Part shown: positions 1 through 19,045 of the stretch, one piece after another
How positions within the stretch are numbered: position 1 is the first letter of the stretch
How the letters are laid out: each line of letters opens with the position of its first letter
Assembly: GCF_003790525.1 (NCBI RefSeq)
Contig: NZ_CP033635.1
Reading direction: 5' to 3' (one strand)
DNA from: Escherichia coli
GTDB taxonomy: Bacteria; Pseudomonadota; Gammaproteobacteria; Enterobacterales; Enterobacteriaceae
DNA: 64,000 nucleotides
Position numbers and translations under genes: made by a program
Notes under the pieces: generated by a model
Told to the model about the DNA's origin: nothing
Database searches by the model: none
What the model saw: the letters and a program-made list of their open reading frames with translations, nothing else

Positions 1-1413
1 TTAATTGACGGCGTGCTGGGAATGAAAGCATACGGCAGCCTGGCAAAACGTGAAAAGGATGACCCGCAAAACTCAACGACCACCGATACCGGAGAAACGC
101 CGCGTATTGAAGGATTCTCCAGCCGCGACGGCAATGTCGAATTTGCCTGGACACCGAATCAAAATCACGATTTTACTGCCGGATACGGTTTCGACCGTCA
201 GGATCGTGATTCCGACTCGCTGGACAAAAACCGCCTGGAACGCCAGAACTACTCCGTCAGCCATAATGGGCGTTGGGATTACGGCACCAGCGAACTGAAA
301 TACTACGGTGAGAAAGTCGAGAACAAAAACCCTGGCTACAGCAGCCCGATAACTTCCGAAAGCAATACGGTCGACGGCAAATACACGTTGCCGCTGACGG
401 CGATTAATCAGTTTCTCACGGTTGGCGGTGAATGGCGTCACGACAAACTTAGCGATGCGGTGAACCTGACCGGGGGAACCAGCTCCAAAACGTCTGCCAG
501 CCAGTACGCGCTGTTTGTGGAAGATGAATGGCGGATCTTCGAGCCGCTGGCGCTGACGACCGGCGTACGTATGGACGATCATGAAACCTACGGTGAACAC
601 TGGAGTCCGCGTGCCTACCTGGTTTATAACGCCACCGACACCGTAACGGTGAAAGGGGGCTGGGCGACGGCATTTAAAGCGCCTTCTCTGTTGCAACTTA
701 GCCCTGACTGGACGAGCAATTCCTGCCGTGGCGCATGTAAGATTGTGGGTAGCCCGGATCTGAAACCAGAAACCAGCGAAAGTTGGGAACTGGGGCTTTA
801 CTACATGGGCGAAGAAGGCTGGCTGGAAGGGGTTGAATCCAGCGTTACCGTTTTCCGTAACGATGTGAAAGATCGTATCAGCATTAGCCGTACGTCTGAC
901 GTCAACGCTGCACCGGGCTACCAAAACTTTGTCGGTTTTGAGACGGGCGCTAACGGACGGCGCATACCGGTATTTAGCTACTACAACGTTAACAAAGCTC
1001 GTATTCAGGGCGTGGAAACCGAACTGAAAATTCCGTTCAACGATGAATGGAAACTGTCGATCAACTACACCTACAACGATGGTCGTGATGTCAGCAACGG
1101 CGAAAACAAACCGCTATCCGATCTGCCGTTCCATACTGCTAACGGTACGCTGGACTGGAAACCGCTGGCGCTGGAAGACTGGTCATTCTATGTTTCTGGT
1201 CACTATACCGGGCAGAAACGCGCCGACAGCGCGACGGCTAAAACACCGGGCGGTTATACCATCTGGAATACCGGTGCGGCCTGGCAGGTGACTAAAGACG
1301 TCAAACTGCGCGCAGGCGTGCTGAACCTTGGCGACAAGGATCTCAGTCGTGACGACTACAGCTATAACGAAGACGGACGTCGTTACTTTATGGCAGTGGA
1401 TTATCGCTTCTGA
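1..1413 (+). CDS. cirA: TonB-dependent outer-membrane receptor, C-terminal part (colicin I receptor-like); 5' end lies outside the window
   Basis: Frame open from position 1; beta-barrel C-terminus ending ...AVDYRF; sits next to yeiG/folE as in K-12 (from memory). Confidence 0.7.
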
Positions 1414-1418
1414 TGAGA

Positions 1419-1441
1419 AGATGCCCGGCGAACCGGGCGGA
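1419..1441. terminator. Hairpin between convergent cirA and yeiG (possible bidirectional terminator)
   Basis: GCCCGGCGAACCGGGC inverted repeat in the 31-bp gap between the two stop codons. Confidence 0.4.
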
Positions 1442-1444
1442 CTT

Positions 1445-2317
<873 letters not shown>

Positions 2318-2537
2318 TCATACCGTTAATTCATTGTGTCGTGAGTAACTTTCACTTCCGTATTTACATAACCGTGTTTTAACATTACACCTTTGTAAGG
2401 CAGCGGCAATTACAACAATTATCGCGGTGAATACTGGATTATGTGTGCCGCCTCACGCACAATAATCAGGCTGCTAATCAGCTTAATAACTTTGCCCCAC
2501 GCAGGGCAGAGGCGTCACACCTGCAGGAGAAAAATAA

Positions 2538-3206
2538 ATGCCATCACTCAGTAAAGAAGCGGCCCTGGTTCATGAAGCGCTGGTTGCGCGAGGACTGGAA
2601 ACACCGCTGCGCCCGCCCGTGCATGAAATGGATAACGAAACGCGCAAAAGCCTTATCGCCGGTCATATGACGGAAATCATGCAGTTGCTGAATCTCGACC
2701 TGGCTGATGACAGTTTGATGGAAACGCCGCATCGTATTGCCAAAATGTATGTCGATGAAATTTTCTCCGGTCTGGATTACGCCAATTTCCCGAAAATTAC
2801 CCTTATTGAAAACAAAATGAAGGTCGATGAGATGGTTACGGTGCGCGATATCACTCTGACCAGTACCTGTGAACACCATTTTGTTACCATTGATGGCAAA
2901 GCGACGGTGGCTTATATCCCGAAAGATTCGGTGATCGGTCTGTCAAAAATTAACCGCATCGTGCAGTTCTTTGCCCAGCGTCCGCAGGTGCAGGAACGTC
3001 TGACCCAGCAAATTCTCATTGCGCTACAAACGCTGCTGGGCACCAATAACGTGGCTGTCTCTATCGACGCGGTGCATTACTGCGTGAAAGCGCGTGGCAT
3101 CCGCGACGCAACCAGTGCCACAACAACGACCTCTCTTGGTGGATTGTTCAAATCCAGTCAGAATACGCGCCACGAGTTTCTGCGCGCTGTGCGTCATCAC
3201 AACTGA
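2538..3206 (+). CDS. folE: GTP cyclohydrolase I
   Basis: 222 aa; conserved CEHH region; ends ...RAVRHHN. Confidence 0.9.
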
Positions 3207-3222
3207 TTAAAAGGCAGGAACC

Positions 3223-4380
3223 ATGGAGCGCAACGTCACGCTCGATTTTGTTCGCGGCGTCGCCATTCTGGGGATCCTGCTATTAAACATCAGCGCCTTT
3301 GGGCTACCAAAGGCGGCTTATCTCAATCCCGCCTGGTACGGCGCTATTACGTCGCAGGATGCATGGACCTGGGCATTTCTCGATCTCATCGGCCAGGTGA
3401 AATTCCTCACGCTTTTTGCTCTGCTGTTTGGTGCGGGCCTGCAAATGTTGCTGCCCCGTGGCAGACGCTGGATCCAGTCGCGGTTAACGCTGTTAGTCTT
3501 GCTGGGCTTTATTCACGGTTTATTGTTCTGGGACGGCGATATTCTGCTGGCTTACGGGCTGGTGGGCTTAATCTGCTGGCGGCTGGTGCGCGATGCGCCA
3601 TCGGTAAAAAGCCTGTTTAATACAGGCGTCATGCTTTATCTGGTGGGGCTTGGCGTTTTGCTGTTATTGGGGCTGATTTCCGACAGCCAGACCAGCCGCG
3701 CCTGGACGCCGGATGCATCGGCTATTTTGTATGAAAAATACTGGAAGCTTCACGGCGGCGTTGAAGCGATCAGTAATCGTGCCGATGGTGTTGGCAACAG
3801 TTTACTGGCACTGGGCGCACAGTATGGCTGGCAACTGGCAGGGATGATGCTCATTGGTGCCGCATTGATGCGCAGCGGCTGGCTGAAAGGGCAGTTCAGC
3901 TTACGTCACTATCGTCGTACTGGTTTTGTGCTGGTGGCGATTGGGGTGACCATTAACCTTCCTGCCATCGCCCTGCAATGGCAGCTGGACTGGGCGTATC
4001 GCTGGTGTGCATTCTTACTTCAAATGCCGCGGGAACTGAGTGCGCCGTTTCAGGCGATTGGCTATGCGTCGCTGTTTTATGGCTTCTGGCCGCAATTAAG
4101 CCGCTTTAAGCTGGTGCTGGCAATCGCCTGTGTCGGACGGATGGCACTGACCAACTATCTATTGCAAACGCTGATTTGTACCACGCTTTTTTACCACCTC
4201 GGTTTGTTTATGCTGTTTGACCGTCTGGAATTGCTGGCGTTTGTTATTCCGGTATGGCTGGCGAATATTCTCTTCTCTGTTATCTGGCTGCGTTACTTCC
4301 GCCAGGGGCCGGTGGAATGGCTCTGGCGTCAGTTAACTTTGCGTGCAGCTGGGCCGGCAAGATCTAAAACATCAAGATAA
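3223..4380 (+). CDS. yeiB: Inner membrane protein (DUF418 family)
   Basis: 385 aa multi-pass hydrophobic ORF; synteny. Confidence 0.8.
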   Translation: MERNVTLDFVRGVAILGILLLNISAFGLPKAAYLNPAWYGAITSQDAWTWAFLDLIGQVKFLTLFALLFGAGLQMLLPRGRRWIQSRLTLLVLLGFIHGLLFWDGDILLAYGLVGLICWRLVRDAPSVKSLFNTGVMLYLVGLGVLLLLGLISDSQTSRAWTPDASAILYEKYWKLHGGVEAISNRADGVGNSLLALGAQYGWQLAGMMLIGAALMRSGWLKGQFSLRHYRRTGFVLVAIGVTINLPAIALQWQLDWAYRWCAFLLQMPRELSAPFQAIGYASLFYGFWPQLSRFKLVLAIACVGRMALTNYLLQTLICTTLFYHLGLFMLFDRLELLAFVIPVWLANILFSVIWLRYFRQGPVEWLWRQLTLRAAGPARSKTSR

Positions 4381-4521
4381 CGATCTGGATCACATTCGTT
4401 AACAAAACGGCTGTAACCGTTTCCATTGCTGTGACTCGATTCACGAAGTCCTGTATTCAGTGCTGACAAAATAGCCGCCAGCAAGCAGTCATTTACTGCA
4501 ATCTCATAACAGGTAGTGAAT

Positions 4522-5562
4522 ATGATCACCATTCGTGATGTAGCGCGTCAGGCTGGCGTCTCTGTGGCAACGGTTTCCCGAGTGCTCAATAACAGCACGC
4601 TGGTCAGTGCCGACACGCGTGAAGCAGTAATGAAAGCCGTGAGTGAGCTGGATTATCGACCAAATGCCAATGCCCAGGCGCTGGCAACTCAGGTTAGCGA
4701 CACCATTGGCGTGGTGGTGATGGACGTTTCTGATGCGTTTTTCGGCGCGCTGGTAAAAGCGGTGGATTTGGTCGCCCAGCAGCATCAGAAATACGTGCTA
4801 ATCGGCAATAGCTATCATGAAGCGGAAAAAGAGCGTCACGCCATTGAGGTGTTAATTCGCCAGCGTTGTAATGCGTTGATTGTTCACTCAAAAGCATTGA
4901 GTGATGATGAACTGGCACAATTTATGGATAACATTCCCGGTATGGTGTTAATCAACCGCGTTGTGCCGGGGTACGCCCATCGTTGCGTTTGCCTGGATAA
5001 TCTCAGCGGTGCCCGAATGGCGACGCGCATGTTGCTGAATAACGGTCATCAACGTATTGGTTATCTTTCTTCCAGCCACGGCATTGAAGATGACGCCATG
5101 CGTAAAGCAGGCTGGATGAGTGCGTTGAAAGAGCAGGATATTATTCCGCCGGAAAGCTGGATTGGCACTGGCACGCCGGACATGCCGGGCGGTGAGGCGG
5201 CGATGGTTGAACTGCTGGGGCGCAATCTACAACTTACCGCTGTATTTGCTTATAACGACAATATGGCTGCTGGCGCACTGACAGCATTAAAAGATAATGG
5301 CATTGCGATTCCGTTACATCTCTCAATCATCGGTTTCGATGATATTCCCATCGCCCGTTACACCGACCCGCAATTAACGACCGTGCGTTATCCCATTGCT
5401 TCAATGGCTAAATTAGCCACCGAACTGGCCTTGCAGGGGGCAGCAGGCAATATTGATCCTCGTGCCAGCCACTGTTTTATGCCAACGTTAGTGCGTCGTC
5501 ATTCTGTCGCAACGCGCCAGAATGCGGCGGCGATCACTAACTCAACAAATCAGGCGATGTAA
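4522..5562 (+). CDS. galS: LacI/GalR-family repressor of the mgl operon
   Basis: N-terminal [27 protein letters not shown]; start set at the second ATG to give the expected length. Confidence 0.85.
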
Positions 5563-9462: not shown

Positions 9463-9513
9463 TGCCGGATGCGCTGCATCCGGCATTCGGTGCCAAATGC
9501 CGGATGTGACGCG
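9463..9513. repeat. REP/BIME element
   Basis: Two GCCGGATG-type palindromic units (TGCCGGATGCG...CATCCGGCA...) between convergent mglC and preA. Confidence 0.6.
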
Positions 9514-15430: not shown

Positions 15431-15632
15431 TTAATTCGTAAAACGTGCTACCGATCACATTAAGAAATCAGCGCTTATTTTTTCGCTCCCGGGCATTACG
15501 CAATGCGCAGCGAACTCAGGCATACATCAAGCATAGAGAGGGATTGCAGTTTGCAGCAATCCCTCTTTGCAGACCTTTAATCCGTTGACTATAGGCGCTA
15601 ACATAGCGCCTCATTTTTTTGCGGGTGATGAT

Positions 15633-16580
15633 ATGCGTGTGTTACTGGCACCGATGGAGGGTGTACTCGACTCTCTGGTGCGTGAATTGCTGACCGAAGT
15701 TAACGACTACGATCTGTGCATCACCGAGTTTGTCCGCGTGGTGGATCAACTGCTGCCGGTAAAAGTCTTTCATCGCATTTGCCCTGAGCTACAAAACGCC
15801 AGCCGGACACCATCCGGTACGCTGGTGCGCGTGCAGTTGTTAGGTCAGTTCCCACAATGGCTGGCAGAGAATGCCGCCCGTGCGGTCGAGTTAGGTTCCT
15901 GGGGCGTGGATCTCAATTGCGGCTGCCCGTCGAAAACGGTTAACGGTAGCGGCGGTGGGGCGACGTTACTCAAAGATCCTGAACTCATCTATCAGGGTGC
16001 AAAAGCGATGCGCGAAGCTGTACCGGCGCATTTGCCCGTCAGCGTAAAAGTGCGTCTGGGCTGGGACAGCGGTGAGAAGAAATTTGAAATCGCCGATGCG
16101 GTTCAACAGGCTGGTGCTACAGAGCTGGTGGTGCATGGGCGGACGAAAGAGCAGGGTTACCGCGCGGAGCATATTGACTGGCAGGCGATTGGCGAGATTC
16201 GCCAGCGGCTGAATATTCCGGTGATTGCCAACGGTGAAATCTGGAACTGGCAGAGTGCGCAACAATGCATGACGATCAGCGGATGCGACGCAGTGATGAT
16301 TGGTCGCGGGGCGCTCAATATTCCCAACCTGAGCCGGGTGGTAAAATATAACGAACCGCGAATGCCGTGGCCGGAGGTAGTTGCTTTGCTGCAAAAATAT
16401 ACCCGTCTGGAAAAGCAGGGCGATACCGGGTTATATCACGTAGCGCGGATTAAACAGTGGTTGAGTTATTTGCGTAAAGAATACGATGAAGCAACAGAAT
16501 TATTTCAGCATGTTCGGATGTTGAATAATTCCCCTGATATTGCAAGGGCTATTCAGGCAATTGATATCGAGAAACTCTAA
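15633..16580 (+). CDS. dusC: tRNA-dihydrouridine synthase C
   Basis: Dus TIM-barrel motifs (LAPMEG, NCGCP); start at [10 protein letters not shown]. Confidence 0.85.
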
Positions 16581-16810
16581 GAAACATAGTGATGTTTTTT
16601 GACAATGTGTTAGCTCTTTATCAATAGGCCGCACGGTTGTTTGGTGGCGTCAAAATCGCCGAGGCGTTCCCTGAAGGCCGGGGCAGCCCACATGGATGTG
16701 GGCTGAGGGCGCGTTTTACAGGGATAATGAGATGGACGCTCCAGATTTTACGGTATCAAAGTACCAGACTGGATCGTTGCAATACGTCCTGAAAAATTAG
16801 GAGCGTCCAC

Positions 16811-17836
16811 ATGAAAGTATCAACTCTTGGTATCGACCTGGCAAAGAACGTTTTTCAGCTTCATGGTGTCGATCATGAAGGCCATACTATTTTGCGTAAA
16901 AAGCTCACCCGGGCTAAGTTTGTTCAGTTTGTGATTCAACTGGAACCTTGTCTGATTGGCATGGAAGCCTGCTCATCCAGTCATTATTTTGCGCGATTAT
17001 TCACCCGCTATGGTCATGAGGTAAAACTCATACCTCCGCAGTATGTGAAGCCTTATGTGAAAACGAACAAGACGGATGCAACAGATGCTGAAGCAATCTG
17101 CGAAGCGGTAACACGTCCGAATATGCGTTTTGTTCAGATAAAAACCGAAGAGCAGCAGGCCGTTTTAGCGTTACACACTGAACGGGGAATACTTATCCGT
17201 GAGCGGATTGCCTGTGCCAATAGTTTAAGAGCCACACTTGCTGAGTTTGGTATTACGATTGCGGCCGGACAAAACCATTTAACCCGTGAGCTGCCAGCCA
17301 TTCTGGAGGATGGCGAAAATGGTTTATCTCCCTTTGTCAGAACCAGCATCTACAGACAGTCTAAACATATCCGGGAACTTGAAGAACAAGTTAAACAGGT
17401 AGAAGAAGCTCTGGCCTCCTGGTATAGAACGCAGGAAGCCTGCCAGAGAATGGCCAAGATCCCGGGGGTTGGCATGCTAACGGCCACTTATGTGGTAGCA
17501 GCAGTGGGTAATGCCCGACAATTCAGTACCGCAAAGCAGTTCGCTTCATGGCTGGGGCTGACACCAAAGGAACATTCCAGCGGCGGGAAACAGCAACTGG
17601 GAGGGATCAGCAAACGTGGAGATGGATATTTCCGATACCTGCTGGTTCACGGCGCACGCGCACTTACCGCCAGGGTCAACCGAAACGGCGCGGTTGAGAA
17701 GAATTCCTGGCTTCAGGGACTCCTTGAGCGGAAGCACTACAATGTAGCTGTTGTCGCCATGGCGGCAAAAACAGCGAGGATCATGTGGTCAATGTTGTCA
17801 CACAATACTGAATATCAACCTCGGCAGCTCGCCTGA
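16811..17836 (+). CDS. IS110-family DEDD transposase/recombinase
   Basis: 341 aa; N-terminal LGIDLAK...GMEACSSSHYF...TDATDAEAI RuvC-like motifs; C-terminal IPGVG...LGLTPKEHSSGG...ISKRGD Transposase_20-like region. Confidence 0.85.
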   Translation: MKVSTLGIDLAKNVFQLHGVDHEGHTILRKKLTRAKFVQFVIQLEPCLIGMEACSSSHYFARLFTRYGHEVKLIPPQYVKPYVKTNKTDATDAEAICEAVTRPNMRFVQIKTEEQQAVLALHTERGILIRERIACANSLRATLAEFGITIAAGQNHLTRELPAILEDGENGLSPFVRTSIYRQSKHIRELEEQVKQVEEALASWYRTQEACQRMAKIPGVGMLTATYVVAAVGNARQFSTAKQFASWLGLTPKEHSSGGKQQLGGISKRGDGYFRYLLVHGARALTARVNRNGAVEKNSWLQGLLERKHYNVAVVAMAAKTARIMWSMLSHNTEYQPRQLA

Positions 17837-18112
17837 CACAAGGTCAGTCAATCTGACGAGGTGCTGAAAAAAAGTTAACGTCCTGGTAGGTGCAGGTGAC
17901 TTCAGAAGATGGCAAAACAGGTAAGACCGCAGGCAGGATACACCGAGAGGTAACAAGGGCAAGTTAGCCCGTAGAGGATGATTGGTACCTGCCTGGCGGA
18001 TTTCATCATGGTTCGGGATAAAAATCCCATCAGAAACCGGATATATGGCTGCACCTACCCGTTTTATTACATAACTGAAGAAAGCATTGCATTCCGGGAG
18101 CGTCCATATATG
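17837..18112 (+). ncRNA. Candidate guide (bridge/seek-type) RNA region in the IS 3' non-coding tail
   Basis: No credible ORF; by analogy with IS110/IS1111 elements that encode a target/donor-pairing ncRNA in their longer non-coding end. Exact RNA ends not determinable here. Confidence 0.3.
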
Positions 18113-18311
18113 TTACCTCGCGCCCGACCCGGTAGCCGCAAGGGATAAGCCGAGGGTACCGCGCAGCGGCGATTTTGTTCGCCAGAGCCCGGGGGGCAGG
18201 GGGCGGCGGCGATTGGCCGCCCCCTGCGCGCTCCTTGCGTCAGTGGCAATATGTGGCTTAGCTCATGAAAGGAGCGCAACAAGATGATGAATCAACATAT
18301 AACAACATTTT

Positions 18312-18340
18312 AAAAAAAGCCTGACATTGCGCCAGGCCTT
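18312..18340 (-). terminator. Rho-independent terminator of aqpZ
   Basis: On the minus strand GCCTGGCGCAATGTCAGGC followed by a T7 run, just past the aqpZ stop. Confidence 0.5.
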
Positions 18341-18349
18341 CTGCGTTAA

Positions 18350-19045
18350 TTAATTACGCTTTTCCAGCAGGGTCCGGTAAATCAGACCACCGATAATACC
18401 GCCGACAATTGGCACCACCCAGAAGAACCACAGTTGTTCTAACGCCCAGCCGCCCTGGAAGATAGCAACCGCGGTGCTGCGCGCCGGGTTAACAGAAGTG
18501 TTAGTCACCGGAATACTGATTAAGTGAATCAGGGTTAAGGCCAGACCAATAGCTATCGGCGCAAAACCTGCCGGAGCGAATTTGTCGGTTGCGCCGTGGA
18601 TCACTAACAGGAAGCCCGCACTCAATACCAGTTCAACTACCAGCGCGGAAAGCATGGAATAACCGCCTGGCGAATGCTCGCCATAACCGTTAGAAGCAAA
18701 ACCGCTGGCTGCCGCGTCAAAACCTGTTTTACCACTGGCAATTAAATACAGCAGCGCCGCCGCAACAATACCGCCGACAACCTGGGCAATTACGTAGCCA
18801 ACGACTTCTTTTGCCGGGAAACGTCCGCCAGCCCATAAACCAATAGTGACCGCCGGGTTAAAATGACCACCAGAAATATGACCAACAGCAAAGGCCATCG
18901 TCAGAACGGTCAGACCGAATGCAAGCGCCACGCCGGCAAAACCAATGCCTAATTCCGGGAAGCCTGCGGCCAGTACGGCACTACCACAGCCACCAAAAAC
19001 AAGCCAGAAAGTACCAAAACATTCAGCTGCTAATTTTCTGAACAT
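18350..19045 (-). CDS. aqpZ: Aquaporin Z
   Basis: 231 aa with two NPA motifs; start at [11 protein letters not shown]. Confidence 0.9.

What the first reader, a model, noticed from the sequence alone, without database searches (positions are those of the whole stretch)
16684..18226. Perfect palindromes in both chromosomal flanks of the IS
CAGCCCACAT/ATGTGGGCTG (16684-16705) lies ~30 bp outside the left end, and CAGGGGGCGGC-N8-GCCGCCCCCTG (18197-18226) lies ~85 bp outside the right end. IS110-family elements often target hairpin-forming or REP-like sites, so these may mark the insertion targets of the two parental copies.
Basis: inference. Interest (0 to 1): 0.3.

Follow-up and report, generated by a model that had tools for sequence, protein, structure and literature searches.

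The report
IS split a known TRIP1 repeat
The two palindromes are real, but they are two conserved hairpins of one known E. coli intergenic repeat (TRIP1), which an RNA-guided IS1111-type insertion sequence has split through its middle hairpin; two such IS copies then inverted 1.3 Mb of chromosome.

Summary
Observation confirmed. Both perfect palindromes exist (16684-16705; 18196-18227), against about 0.8 expected per 64 kb in shuffles.

They are not two separate target marks. E. coli K-12 holds the uninterrupted sequence at both dusC-yohP and lysO-aqpZ. It is one ~265-bp repeat, TRIP1 (Rudd 1999; Li 2024). Palindrome 1 is its first hairpin (loop AUGGAU) and palindrome 2 its last.

Every TRIP1-type site I read, in four genera, has the IS at this point and in this orientation.

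Targeting is best explained by a 3' seekRNA. Its guide GAGGUAACA pairs with T|GTTACCTC, and a Klebsiella variant guide (GAGGUAGCA) matches its changed target (GCTGCCTC). An Enterobacter relative inserted where no palindrome exists, and TRIP1d, which keeps the hairpins but has a mismatched core, has no insertion.

The "two parental copies" idea holds. The reciprocal junction lysO-IS-yohP exists, with 84 genomes for each junction, and only one IS-less hybrid was found.

TRIP1 resembles the TwoAYGGAY RNA motif, and its loops match the CsrA-binding consensus. That link is untested.

The parts
16623..16725 (+). Left half of a split TRIP1 repeat (TRIP1c-type, dusC side). It holds the 5' strand of the outer stem (16651-16666), hairpin 1, and the 5' half of hairpin 2 (stem GGGCGCG 16707-16713, loop UUUUACAGGGAU).
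   Evidence: Identical to the left part of intact TRIP1c in K-12. Boundaries follow Li et al. 2024. The outer-stem pairing across the IS is I2. The fold of the intact repeat has z = -4.67.
16684..16705 (+). Palindrome 1 of the finding. It is TRIP1 hairpin 1: a 10-bp perfect stem whose RNA form has the terminal sequence ACAUGGAUGU.
   Evidence: I13. Aligned to hairpin 1 of Rfam TwoAYGGAY. The stem is kept by compensatory changes in TRIP1d (CGACGCGC..GCGCGGCG), K. aerogenes and E. cloacae. Across 112 distinct gammaproteobacterial instances the mean extra stem is 3.8 bp, against 0.86 in the control.
16726..18111 (+). IS1111-type (IS110 superfamily) insertion sequence, 1386 bp. The AT at 16724-25 and at 18110-11 is ambiguous between target and IS.
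   Evidence: Empty sites in K-12 read ...ACAGGGAT|GTTACC.... A precise IS-less hybrid site exists in strain KFu014. The IS occurs in 179 of 5426 complete E. coli genomes.
16732..16742 (+). Left subterminal inverted repeat, ATGGACGCTCC, preceded by a 6-7-bp terminal extension.
   Evidence: (I8): 11/11 complementary to 18097-18107.
16811..17836 (+). Transposase gene, 341 aa: DEDD/RuvC-like N-terminal domain plus Transposase_20 C-terminal domain, with motif GLTPKEHSSG.
   Evidence: ORF. (PF01548, PF02371). (NF033542, 'IS110 family RNA-guided transposase', 362 bits against a cut-off of 140).
17924..17999 (+). Candidate seekRNA / target-binding module. A closing stem (CCGCAGGCAGG / CCUGCCUGGCGG) encloses an internal loop. 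The 5' side of the loop, GAGGUAACA (17947-17955), pairs with the top strand T|GTTACCTC. A small hairpin GGGCAAGUUAGCCC follows. The 3' side contains GGAUG (17975-17979), which equals the top strand GGAT|G and so pairs with the bottom strand.
   Evidence: I11; 9/9 Watson-Crick; 49 of 2000 shuffles (0.0245) gave a perfect match of 9 nt or more anywhere in the 24-nt target; fold z = -4.27; guide and target covary in K. aerogenes. The order, top-strand match 5' of bottom-strand match with overlap in the target, is as described for IS1111 seekRNAs (PMC11187229). The RNA ends are inferred, not measured.
18097..18107 (+). Right subterminal inverted repeat, GGAGCGTCCAT. Joined to the left end in a circle, TTGCAT (18087-18092), a 16-nt spacer, and TAT|AAT would form a junction promoter.
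   Evidence: I8. The promoter is read directly from the sequence. It is analogous to the ISEc11 junction promoter.
18112..18280 (+). Right half of the split TRIP1 repeat (TRIP1a-type, aqpZ side). It holds the 3' half of hairpin 2 (GUUACCU + CGCGCCC 18119-18125), the 3' strand of the outer stem (18162-18177), and hairpin 3.
   Evidence: Matches the right part of intact TRIP1a in K-12, including the aqpZ-side unique tail. Boundaries follow.
18196..18227 (+). Palindrome 2 of the finding. It is TRIP1 hairpin 3: a 12-bp G+C stem with loop GGCGAUUG and no U-tract.
   Evidence: I7. Retained in TRIP1b, which lacks hairpins 1-2. The stem is replaced by GCCAGGGTGG/CCACCCTGGC in the yegH copy, by ACAGAGGGCGGC/GCCGCCCTCTGT in K. 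aerogenes, and by GCCAGGGCGGC/GCCGCCCTGGC in E. cloacae. Not terminator-like.

Best explanation
The two palindromes are hairpin 1 and hairpin 3 of a single TRIP1 repeat. TRIP1 is a ~265-bp, G+C-rich intergenic element present in 1-5 copies per E. coli genome. It folds as a long outer stem enclosing two hairpins, followed by a third hairpin.

An IS1111-family insertion sequence (DEDD transposase, subterminal inverted repeats, 275-bp 3' non-coding region) has inserted orientation-specifically at GGGAT|GTTACC. That point is the loop of the middle hairpin.

The site is chosen by base-pairing with a seekRNA encoded in the IS 3' non-coding region, not by the palindromes. One guide (GAGGUAACA) pairs with the top strand to the right of the junction. 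A short second segment (GGAUG) pairs with the bottom strand across the junction.

The palindromes travel with the target because the IS is tuned to a sequence inside a repeat. Such a repeat offers several neutral landing sites per genome.

The left flank here is TRIP1c (dusC side) and the right flank is TRIP1a (aqpZ side). IS copies had entered both repeats, which lie in inverted orientation 1.31 Mb apart. Recombination between those IS copies, most simply RecA-dependent, inverted the terminus-centred segment.

Shown: the anatomy, the empty sites, the identical insertion point in several loci and genera, the reciprocal junction, and the guide complementarity with its covariation.

Inferred: the seekRNA ends, the bottom-strand and donor guides, the circle-junction promoter, and the recombination pathway.
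For: - Intact element at both K-12 loci, with the IS point at GGGAT|GTTACC.
- The element is TRIP1, and the SMS-3-5 inversion of 1,313,407 bp is published.
- Same insertion point and orientation at dusC, lysO and yegH loci in E. coli, and in K. aerogenes, Kluyvera and E. cloacae TRIP1-like elements.
- Census in 5426 genomes: dusC-IS-aqpZ 84, plus 2 with a deleted IS; lysO-IS-yohP 84; yegH-IS-asmA 77; dusC-IS-yohP 10; lysO-IS-aqpZ 8.
- IS-less hybrid junction in only 1 genome.
- The two SMS-3-5 copies lie on opposite strands (H1 against H189).
- The 9-nt guide abuts the junction; 49 of 2000 shuffles (0.0245) gave a perfect match that long; the local fold has z = -4.27.
- K. aerogenes guide A->G matches target T->C.
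- An insertion without palindromes exists.
- TRIP1d with a mismatched core has 0 insertions.
- Family features of the transposase and its ends are present, and the seekRNA architecture agrees with PMC11187229.
Against: - The bottom-strand guide is only 5 nt (GGAUG), and the donor-binding part is not statistically supported (fold z = -0.44).
- The E. cloacae variant guide (GAGGCAACA) has one C-A mismatch to its TRIP1-like target, and fits the non-TRIP1 site only with a bulge.
- The absence from TRIP1d could reflect which lineages carry both the IS and TRIP1d, rather than guide mismatch.
- About 60 of the 328 chromosomal IS places were not assigned to a locus. Some are the yegH variant with a toxin-antitoxin insert.
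- No RNA or transposition data were available.
- The 84 + 84 inversion genomes may descend from one event, so the counts are not independent.
Confidence: 0.85

Rival explanations
1. One reading: the flanking palindromes, as DNA hairpins or cruciforms, are what the transposase recognises, and each marks the insertion target of one parental copy.
For: All TRIP1-type sites carry both palindromes at fixed distances from the IS. Some IS110/IS1111 members are known occupants of REP elements (references).
Against: - Both palindromes belong to one repeat and flank a single insertion point.
- The yegH copy is used in 77 genomes although its palindrome 2 has a different stem sequence.
- TRIP1d keeps both hairpins but has no insertion.
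- A 91%-identical IS sits in a site with no inverted repeat of arm >=7 within 200 bp.
- Guide and target covary in K. aerogenes.
Confidence: 0.06
2. The inversion was made by homologous recombination between the TRIP1a and TRIP1c repeats themselves, as stated by Li et al. 2024. The IS entered the two hybrid repeats afterwards, so the IS copies are not 'parental'.
For: TRIP1a and TRIP1c are 94% identical over about 270 bp and lie in inverted orientation. One genome, KFu014, has a hybrid dusC-TRIP1-aqpZ junction without an IS.
Against: - 86 of 87 dusC|aqpZ junctions carry the IS, as do all 84 detected lysO|yohP junctions.
- KFu014's junction is 100.0% identical to the IS-deleted window. This fits secondary precise loss within the same lineage.
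- Strains with the IS in both un-inverted repeats exist: XJ6.1, JNEC-KY178 and PER13-34.
- A 1.4-kb identical IS is a far better recombination substrate than two ~100-170-bp half repeats.
Confidence: 0.1
3. The palindromes are intrinsic transcription terminators of dusC and aqpZ and are unrelated to the IS.
For: Both lie just downstream of convergent genes, and both are G+C-rich stem-loops.
Against: - Neither is followed by a T-run on either strand, and the terminator scan calls neither.
- aqpZ has its own hairpin plus T-run closer to the gene (18319-18345, read; noted by Li et al.).
- The same hairpins recur at unrelated loci as parts of one repeat.
Confidence: 0.03

Closest known systems
TRIP1 intergenic repeats of E. 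coli (Rudd 1999; Li et al. 2024, Genes 15:236, PMC10888264)
   Same: The flanks of the IS are the two halves of a TRIP1 repeat. K-12 coordinates 915016-915281 (TRIP1a) and 2229122-2229394 (TRIP1c) cover the intact sequences read. The G+C-rich 'double-Y' fold and the TRIP1a/c inversion in SMS-3-5 are published.
   Different: - That paper does not mention any IS. Here the TRIP1a/c hybrid junctions carry an IS1111-type element in 86 of 87 and 84 of 84 cases.
- A further TRIP1-like locus (yegH-asmA) is not in their list.
- They note no link to Rfam TwoAYGGAY or to the CsrA consensus.
IS1111 family with seekRNA: ISEc11, ISPa11, ISKpn4 (Siddiquee et al. 2024, PMC11187229); IS4321/IS5075
   Same: - DEDD transposase of 330-350 aa with the GL-P----SG motif.
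- Subterminal inverted repeats with short terminal extensions.
- Long non-coding region downstream of tnp.
- Orientation-specific insertion at one sequence without duplication.
- A top-strand match lying 5' of an overlapping bottom-strand match in a 70-100-nt RNA.
- A promoter formed at the circle junction.
- ISPa11 also lives in a repeated palindromic element (REP).
   Different: - The transposase is only about 40% identical to IS4321/IS5075 and about 51% to the nearest plasmid-borne relative.
- The target, the TRIP1 hairpin-2 loop, is different.
- I could not consult ISfinder, so I cannot say whether the element already has an IS name.
- The seekRNA is inferred here, not sequenced.
IS621 and the bridge RNA (IS110 group) of E. 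coli
   Same: An RNA-guided DEDD recombinase that inserts at a specific site inside a repeated palindromic element of E. coli (REP). Cited.
   Different: IS621 has its guide RNA 5' of the gene, no subterminal inverted repeats, a shorter transposase (about 326 aa) and REP targets (own knowledge). The present element is of the IS1111 type.
TwoAYGGAY RNA motif (Rfam RF01731; Weinberg et al. 2010)
   Same: - An outer stem encloses two hairpins whose loops carry AUGGAU and AGGGAU.
- cmscan aligns the whole TRIP1 core to the model, positions 1-168.
- Relatives in Pseudocitrobacter (49.2 bits) and Salinicola (44.8 bits) pass the gathering score.
- The taxa agree: gamma-proteobacteria plus Clostridiales.
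   Different: E. coli TRIP1 scores 30.6-30.9 bits, below the gathering score of 43. Its second loop is AGGGAU, not AYGGAY. TRIP1 also has an extra 3' hairpin (palindrome 2) that is not in the model.

Membership tests
IS1111 family (IS110 superfamily) | DEDD/RuvC-like N-terminal domain (PF01548) plus Transposase_20 C-terminal domain (PF02371) | tested here: met
   E = 2.3e-15 and 4.5e-25. NF033542, 362 bits against a cut-off of 140.
IS1111 family (IS110 superfamily) | GL-P----S(T)G motif in the C-terminal domain; transposase length 330-350 aa | tested here: met
   The translation contains WLGLTPKEHSSGGK; length 341 aa.
IS1111 family (IS110 superfamily) | Subterminal inverted repeats with short terminal extensions | tested here: met
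   I8: 11/11 (16732-42 / 18097-107). Extensions are 6-7 bp on the left and 3-4 bp on the right, given the ends.
IS1111 family (IS110 superfamily) | Long non-coding region downstream of tnp | tested here: met
   275 bp (17837-18111) downstream, against 85 bp upstream.
IS1111 family (IS110 superfamily) | Insertion at one specific sequence, in one orientation, without target duplication | tested here: met
   15 TRIP1-type insertions read, at 7 distinct loci in 4 genera, all at the same point and in the same orientation. One further copy (L143) lies in a non-TRIP1 site that also carries GGAT|G. The empty sites show no duplication beyond the ambiguous AT.
IS1111 family (IS110 superfamily) | seekRNA from the non-coding region with a top-strand match 5' of an overlapping bottom-strand match | tested here: inconclusive
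   The top-strand match is 9/9; 49 of 2000 shuffles (0.0245) reached that length; it covaries with the target. The bottom-strand match is only 5 nt. The RNA itself was not observed.
IS1111 family (IS110 superfamily) | Circular intermediate with a junction promoter | not testable with these tools
   The sequence predicts TTGCAT-16 nt-TATAAT across RE|LE. No experimental data.
TRIP1 repeat | Sequence identity to K-12 TRIP1a/TRIP1c at their published coordinates and loci (aqpZ/ybjE, yohI/yohG) | tested here: met
   against the coordinates. The de-IS'd window aligns with 91% mean column identity to the family.
TwoAYGGAY RNA (RF01731) | Score at or above the Rfam gathering threshold (43 bits) | tested here: not met
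   30.6 and 30.9 bits for K-12 TRIP1a and TRIP1c. The window itself gives no hit because the IS splits the element.
TwoAYGGAY RNA (RF01731) | Two adjacent hairpins with AYGGAY terminal loops inside an outer stem | tested here: inconclusive
   Hairpin 1 has loop AUGGAU (met). Hairpin 2 has AGGGAU, with a purine instead of Y (not met strictly). The outer stem is present, with compensatory pairs.
REP/BIME elements | Match to the REP consensus or the naRNA4 model | tested here: not met
   The Rfam naRNA4 hits in the K-12 loci lie elsewhere (L003 2389-2466 and 8730-8767). None lies on TRIP1.
Intrinsic terminator | G+C stem-loop followed by a T-run | tested here: not met
   neither palindrome is called, and there is no T-run on either strand.
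CsrA-binding RNA sites | GGA in a hairpin loop within RUACARGGAUGU (SELEX consensus, quoted in PMC2896534) | tested here: met
   Hairpin 2, UUACAGGGAUGU, matches 11 of 12 positions. Hairpin 1, CCACAUGGAUGU, matches 9 of 12; the GGA core and the flanking ACA/UGU are kept, and the mismatches are at R1, U2 and R6. This is sequence only.
CsrA-binding RNA sites | Demonstrated CsrA binding | not testable with these tools
   The Potts et al. 2017 supplement lists dusC and ybjE as 'No' in all binding and regulation columns. Reads from repeats may have been discarded, and the intergenic TRIP1 is not itself listed.

The most novel reading that the evidence does not exclude
TRIP1 is the enterobacterial branch of the TwoAYGGAY class. 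That class is a widespread, multi-copy gammaproteobacterial RNA element with two hairpin loops (ACAUGGAUGU and ACAGGGAUGU) that are near-perfect high-affinity CsrA sites. On this reading TRIP1 is a dispersed CsrA-binding or titrating module.

The IS1111-type element has evolved a seekRNA against the second CsrA-type loop, so each insertion disables one module.

The 'TRIP1-mediated' chromosome rearrangements reported for E. coli would then really be mediated by this IS, conceivably by its own RNA-guided recombinase rather than RecA.
Probability: 0.15. Interest if true: 0.6.

Novelty: new member of a known kind. Interest (0 to 1): 0.35.

Why it matters
For the finding itself, the result is mostly explanatory. 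The palindromes are ordinary parts of a catalogued repeat, and the IS behaves like other IS1111-family elements. Three points go beyond what I found in the literature.

1. The published "TRIP1-caused" 1.3-Mb inversion of SMS-3-5 and about 85 other genomes has an IS copy at both breakpoints in all but one genome. The recombination substrate is therefore most likely the IS. This changes how those rearrangements should be interpreted and predicted.

2. The element gives a natural example of seekRNA/target co-evolution across genera. The guide changes from A to G where the target changes from T to C. One insertion lies outside the repeat.

3. TRIP1 has had no proposed function since 1999. It aligns to the TwoAYGGAY motif and carries two CsrA-consensus loops, which gives a concrete and testable hypothesis for both orphan elements.

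Tried and rejected
- **Rfam on the window.** Nothing on the flanks, because the IS splits the element. The match appears only on intact K-12 copies.
- **Terminator hypothesis.** The scans call neither palindrome.
- **REP/BIME hypothesis.** No REP-type match on TRIP1.
- **Donor-binding loop of the guide RNA.** The segments AUUUCAU (18000-06) and AUAUAUGG (18041-48) could pair with the left and right IS ends. The local fold is not better than shuffles (z = -0.44), so I leave this as tentative.
- **Other candidate bottom-strand guides.** CGUUUUAU (18060-67) equals the left-flank CGTTTTAC, but it lies 6 nt from the junction and outside the best-folding module. ACAAGGGCA (17952-60) needs a bulge.
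- **Naming the IS.** Nearest relatives by protein in plasmids are too distant (<=51%) to align the non-coding region. Cluster names say only 'IS110 family transposase'. ISfinder is not available.
- **TRIP1e.** The reference accession CP057178 is not in the collection, so TRIP1e was not examined.
- **Literature.** Rudd 1999 is not in the library. No paper links TRIP1 with TwoAYGGAY or CsrA.
- **CsrA CLIP supplement.** It gives no support for binding near dusC or ybjE.
- **Alignment-based pair counts for hairpin 3.** They were spoiled by mis-registration of the yegH-type stem. The compensatory change was read directly from the sequences.
Full report
**Where the window is.** The region 16560-18360 is 100% identical to E. 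coli SMS-3-5 (NC_010498.1, reverse strand) and to several other complete genomes. The annotated order there is yohK-yohJ-dusC | IS110-family transposase | aqpZ-ybjD-ybjX. In K-12, dusC lies at 2.23 Mb and aqpZ at 0.92 Mb.

**The observation.** Both palindromes are present. The first has 10-nt arms at 16684-16693 / 16696-16705. The second has 12-nt arms at 18196-18207 / 18216-18227, one base longer on each side than reported. Perfect inverted repeats of this size occur at about 12 places in the window, against 0.8 expected in dinucleotide-preserving shuffles. They are not chance, but they are also not rare in bacterial intergenic DNA.

**Empty sites.**
- The K-12 intergenic regions lysO-aqpZ and dusC-yohP each contain, uninterrupted, one and the same ~200-270-bp sequence.
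- It runs ...GGTGGCGTCAAAATCGCCGAGGCG...CAGCCCACATGGATGTGGGCTGAGGGCGCGTTTTACAGGGAT|GTTACCTCGCGCCC...CAGCGGCGATTTTG...GCAGGGGGCGGCGGCGATTGGCCGCCCCCTGC....
- The bar marks where the IS lies in the window.
- The IS is thus 16726-18111 (1386 bp). An AT is ambiguous between target and element.
- Both palindromes belong to a single repeat. One lies 20 bp to the left and the other 84 bp to the right of one insertion point.
- A third, imperfect palindrome is cut in two by the IS: GGGCGCG-N19-CGCGCCC, 16707-16713 / 18119-18125.
- A long-range pairing across the IS (16651-16666 with 18162-18177, I2) is the outer stem of the repeat.

**Identity of the repeat.**
- It is TRIP1, described by Rudd in 1999 and surveyed by Li et al. 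2024 (PMC10888264).
- TRIP1a lies at aqpZ/ybjE(lysO) and TRIP1c at yohI(dusC)/yohG(mdtQ), in the opposite orientation. TRIP1b lies at putP with an internal deletion. TRIP1d is at alx/sstT and TRIP1e at copA/ybaP.
- That paper reports the "double-Y" RNA fold and a 1,313,407-bp inversion between TRIP1a and TRIP1c in SMS-3-5. It attributes the inversion to the repeats and does not mention an IS.
- In my searches the repeat occurs in 5425 of 5426 complete genomes, with a median of 3 places per genome.
- I also found a more divergent copy between yegH and asmA. It is truncated in K-12 and absent from their list.

**Structure of the repeat.**
- As RNA, TRIP1a folds to -131.5 kcal/mol, z = -4.67 against shuffles.
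- The fold is an outer stem, then hairpin 1 (palindrome 1, loop AUGGAU), hairpin 2 (loop containing ACAGGGAUGU), and then hairpin 3 (palindrome 2).
- Paralogues and orthologues keep these stems through compensatory changes:

| Copy | Hairpin 1 | Hairpin 3 |
|---|---|---|
| E. coli TRIP1a/c (reference) | CAGCCCAC-AUGGAU-GUGGGCUG | GCAGGGGGCGGC / GCCGCCCCCTGC |
| TRIP1d | CGACGCGC-AUGGAU-GCGCGGCG | as reference |
| yegH-asmA copy | as reference | GCCAGGGTGG / CCACCCTGGC |
| K. aerogenes | CAGCCCGC-AUGGAU-GCGGGCUG | ACAGAGGGCGGC / GCCGCCCTCTGT |
| E. cloacae | GGCGC-AUGGAU-GCGCC | GCCAGGGCGGC / GCCGCCCTGGC |

- RNAalifold on ten copies finds 8 pairs with double-sided changes.
- Neither palindrome has a T-run, and neither is called as a terminator.

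**The IS.**
- The 341-aa ORF carries PF01548 and PF02371 and matches NCBIfam "IS110 family RNA-guided transposase".
- It contains the motif GLTPKEHSSG.
- The element has 11-bp subterminal inverted repeats (I8), short terminal extensions, and a 275-bp non-coding region downstream of the gene.
- These are the features given for the IS1111 family by Siddiquee et al. 2024 (PMC11187229).
- Joining the right and left ends would create TTGCAT, a 16-nt spacer, and TAT|AAT. That is a junction promoter like the one shown for ISEc11 (sequence reading).
- The protein is about 40% identical to IS4321/IS5075 and 51% to the nearest plasmid relative.
- I could not find an IS name for the element.

**How the site is chosen.**
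- Within the 3' non-coding region, GAGGUAACA (17947-17955) is a perfect complement of the top strand T|GTTACCTC, starting exactly at the junction (I11).
- In 2000 shuffles of the non-coding region, 49 (0.0245) gave a perfect match of 9 nt or more anywhere in the 24-nt target.
- The guide lies on the 5' side of an internal loop in a 76-nt module (17924-17999) that folds with z = -4.27.
- The 3' side of that loop contains GGAUG, identical to the top strand GGAT|G, so it can pair with the bottom strand across the junction.
- The order (top-strand match first) and the overlap of the two matches in the target are what Siddiquee et al. describe for IS1111 seekRNAs.

**Natural variation supports this.** Near-identical transposases occur in K. 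aerogenes, Kluyvera and the E. cloacae complex.
- In K. aerogenes (IS 96% identical), the guide reads GAGGUAGCA and the right flank reads GCTGCCTC. The T->C change in the target is matched by A->G in the guide, and the A->G change in the target gives a G:U pair.
- In Kluyvera, guide and target are as in E. coli.
- In E. cloacae (IS 91% identical, guide GAGGCAACA), one copy is in a TRIP1-like element with one mismatch.
- Another E. cloacae copy (L143) is in an unrelated site, TTTTTCATGGAT|GCTTGCCTT. That site has no inverted repeat with arms >=7 within 200 bp on either side.
- GGAT|G is present at every site.
- TRIP1d keeps the hairpins but reads GGGAC|GTTCCCTTG. It has no insertion in 5426 genomes.
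- I conclude that the palindromes are passengers of the target, not its determinants.

**Survey of IS copies.**
- The IS is in 179 of 5426 genomes, at 338 places. SMS-3-5 has two.
- Genome counts by context:

| Context | Genomes |
|---|---|
| dusC-IS-aqpZ | 84, plus 2 with a ~97-bp-shorter, frameshifted IS |
| lysO-IS-yohP | 84 |
| yegH-IS-asmA | 77 |
| dusC-IS-yohP | 10 |
| lysO-IS-aqpZ | 8 |

- All eight E. coli flanks that I read have the same junction and orientation.

**The inversion.**
- The reciprocal junction is in SMS-3-5 at 909198-912190, on the opposite strand to the window's copy.
- Strains XJ6.1, JNEC-KY178 and PER13-34 carry the IS in both TRIP1a and TRIP1c in the un-inverted arrangement.
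- Only one genome, KFu014, has a dusC-TRIP1-aqpZ junction without the IS. It is 100.0% identical to the IS-deleted window, which suggests a later precise loss.
- The inversion is therefore better ascribed to recombination between two inverted IS copies than to the TRIP1 repeats alone.
- Whether RecA or the IS recombinase did it, and how many independent events there were, I could not determine.
- The K-12 breakpoints have their midpoint at about 1.57 Mb, close to the terminus (own knowledge of the dif position).

**What TRIP1 might be.**
- cmscan aligns intact TRIP1 over the full length of Rfam TwoAYGGAY (RF01731) at 30.6-30.9 bits. That is below the gathering score of 43. E = 0.0055 when only the 381-nt region is searched.
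From base composition I expected about 27 by chance.
- The hits are overwhelmingly in Gammaproteobacteria: six copies in one Shewanella, plus Acinetobacter, Salinicola, Pseudoxanthomonas and others. A few are in Lachnospiraceae.
- Three instances among 20 loci pass the Rfam threshold. One is a second, divergent element next to the Pseudocitrobacter TRIP1 copy.
- In 112 distinct instances the bases flanking the first loop pair for 3.8 further bp on average, against 0.86 in a shuffled-partner control. There are 40 different stem sequences.
- The loops match the CsrA SELEX consensus RUACARGGAUGU (quoted in PMC2896534). Hairpin 2 matches 11 of 12 positions.
- Gardner and Eldai proposed CsrA binding for TwoAYGGAY (PMC4333381).
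- I found no paper connecting TRIP1 to either.
- A CsrA CLIP data set lists dusC and ybjE as unbound.
- This remains a hypothesis.

**Verdict.** The components are known kinds (TRIP1; an IS1111-type RNA-guided IS). The specific pairing of this IS with TRIP1, and its presence at nearly all "TRIP1" inversion breakpoints, appears not to have been reported in the papers I could search.

Noticed in passing
L132 (NZ_CP091712.1, strain KFu014) 3001-4655: The only genome of 5426 with an IS-less hybrid dusC-TRIP1-aqpZ junction. It is 100.0% identical to the window with the IS removed. This looks like a precise loss of the IS after the inversion.
   Followed up: partly
L131 (NZ_OZ546925.1, isolate AF14) 101-3044; also NZ_OZ546911.1: The dusC-IS-aqpZ junction carries an IS about 97 bp shorter, with a frameshifted transposase. 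The same genome's lysO-side TRIP1 half has a variant target, CTTACAAGGAT| (L006).
   Followed up: partly
one search hits H135-H156 and others (lysO-IS-yohP junction): In many genomes the reciprocal junction spans 4254 bp instead of 2993 bp, and an IS3-family transposase is annotated there. A second IS has landed in or next to the IS1111-type copy.
   Followed up: no
L004, L005, L007, L008 (yegH-asmA intergenic); L010 5490-5620 in K-12: A TRIP1-like copy downstream of yegH is not among the five loci of Li et al. 2024. K-12 keeps only its 3' part. Both yegH and alx (upstream of TRIP1d) encode TerC-family proteins.
   Followed up: partly
L005 and L008, 3100-3547: In some strains a RelE/ParE toxin fragment plus an HTH gene lie between the IS-bearing yegH repeat and asmA.
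   Followed up: no
window 16733-16749 / 16793-16809: A 17-nt inverted repeat (88%) pairs the left subterminal repeat with the Shine-Dalgarno sequence and the bases up to the transposase ATG (16811). On read-through transcripts this would hide the ribosome-binding site. A transcript from the predicted circle-junction promoter would start inside the left arm and escape.
   Followed up: no
L065 (Pseudocitrobacter faecalis) 1900-2110 (- strand) and 2170-2370 (+ strand): Two TwoAYGGAY-type elements lie back to back. One is a TRIP1 orthologue. The other has the same architecture but entirely different stems and scores 49.2 bits.
   Followed up: partly
L113, L114, L046, L129, L112, L038 (Thalassotalea, Alteromonadaceae, Oceanospirillales): The twin loops ACAUGGAUGU / ACAGGGAUGU occur as tandem arrays of ~50-nt units. 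This is reminiscent of CsrB/Rsm-type sponge RNAs.
   Followed up: no
L024-L028 (groundwater gammaproteobacterium), L029-L034 (Shewanella electrodiphila): Five to six near-identical copies per genome of a TwoAYGGAY-like element. Each is followed by a second conserved hairpin, so these are dispersed repeats like TRIP1.
   Followed up: no
window 9463-9506; 15537-15566: Other perfect palindromes. A REP-like pair (TGCCGGATGC...) lies at 9463-9506. At 15537-15566, between yohJ and dusC, is a hairpin whose neighbourhood gave a weak sub-threshold Rfam suhB/mmgR hit (22.3 bits).
   Followed up: no
window 16811-17833 (protein): Weak sub-threshold similarity of residues 130-253 to the NCBIfam TIGR-Tas RNA-guided endonuclease model (31.7 bits against a cut-off of 100).
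   Followed up: no
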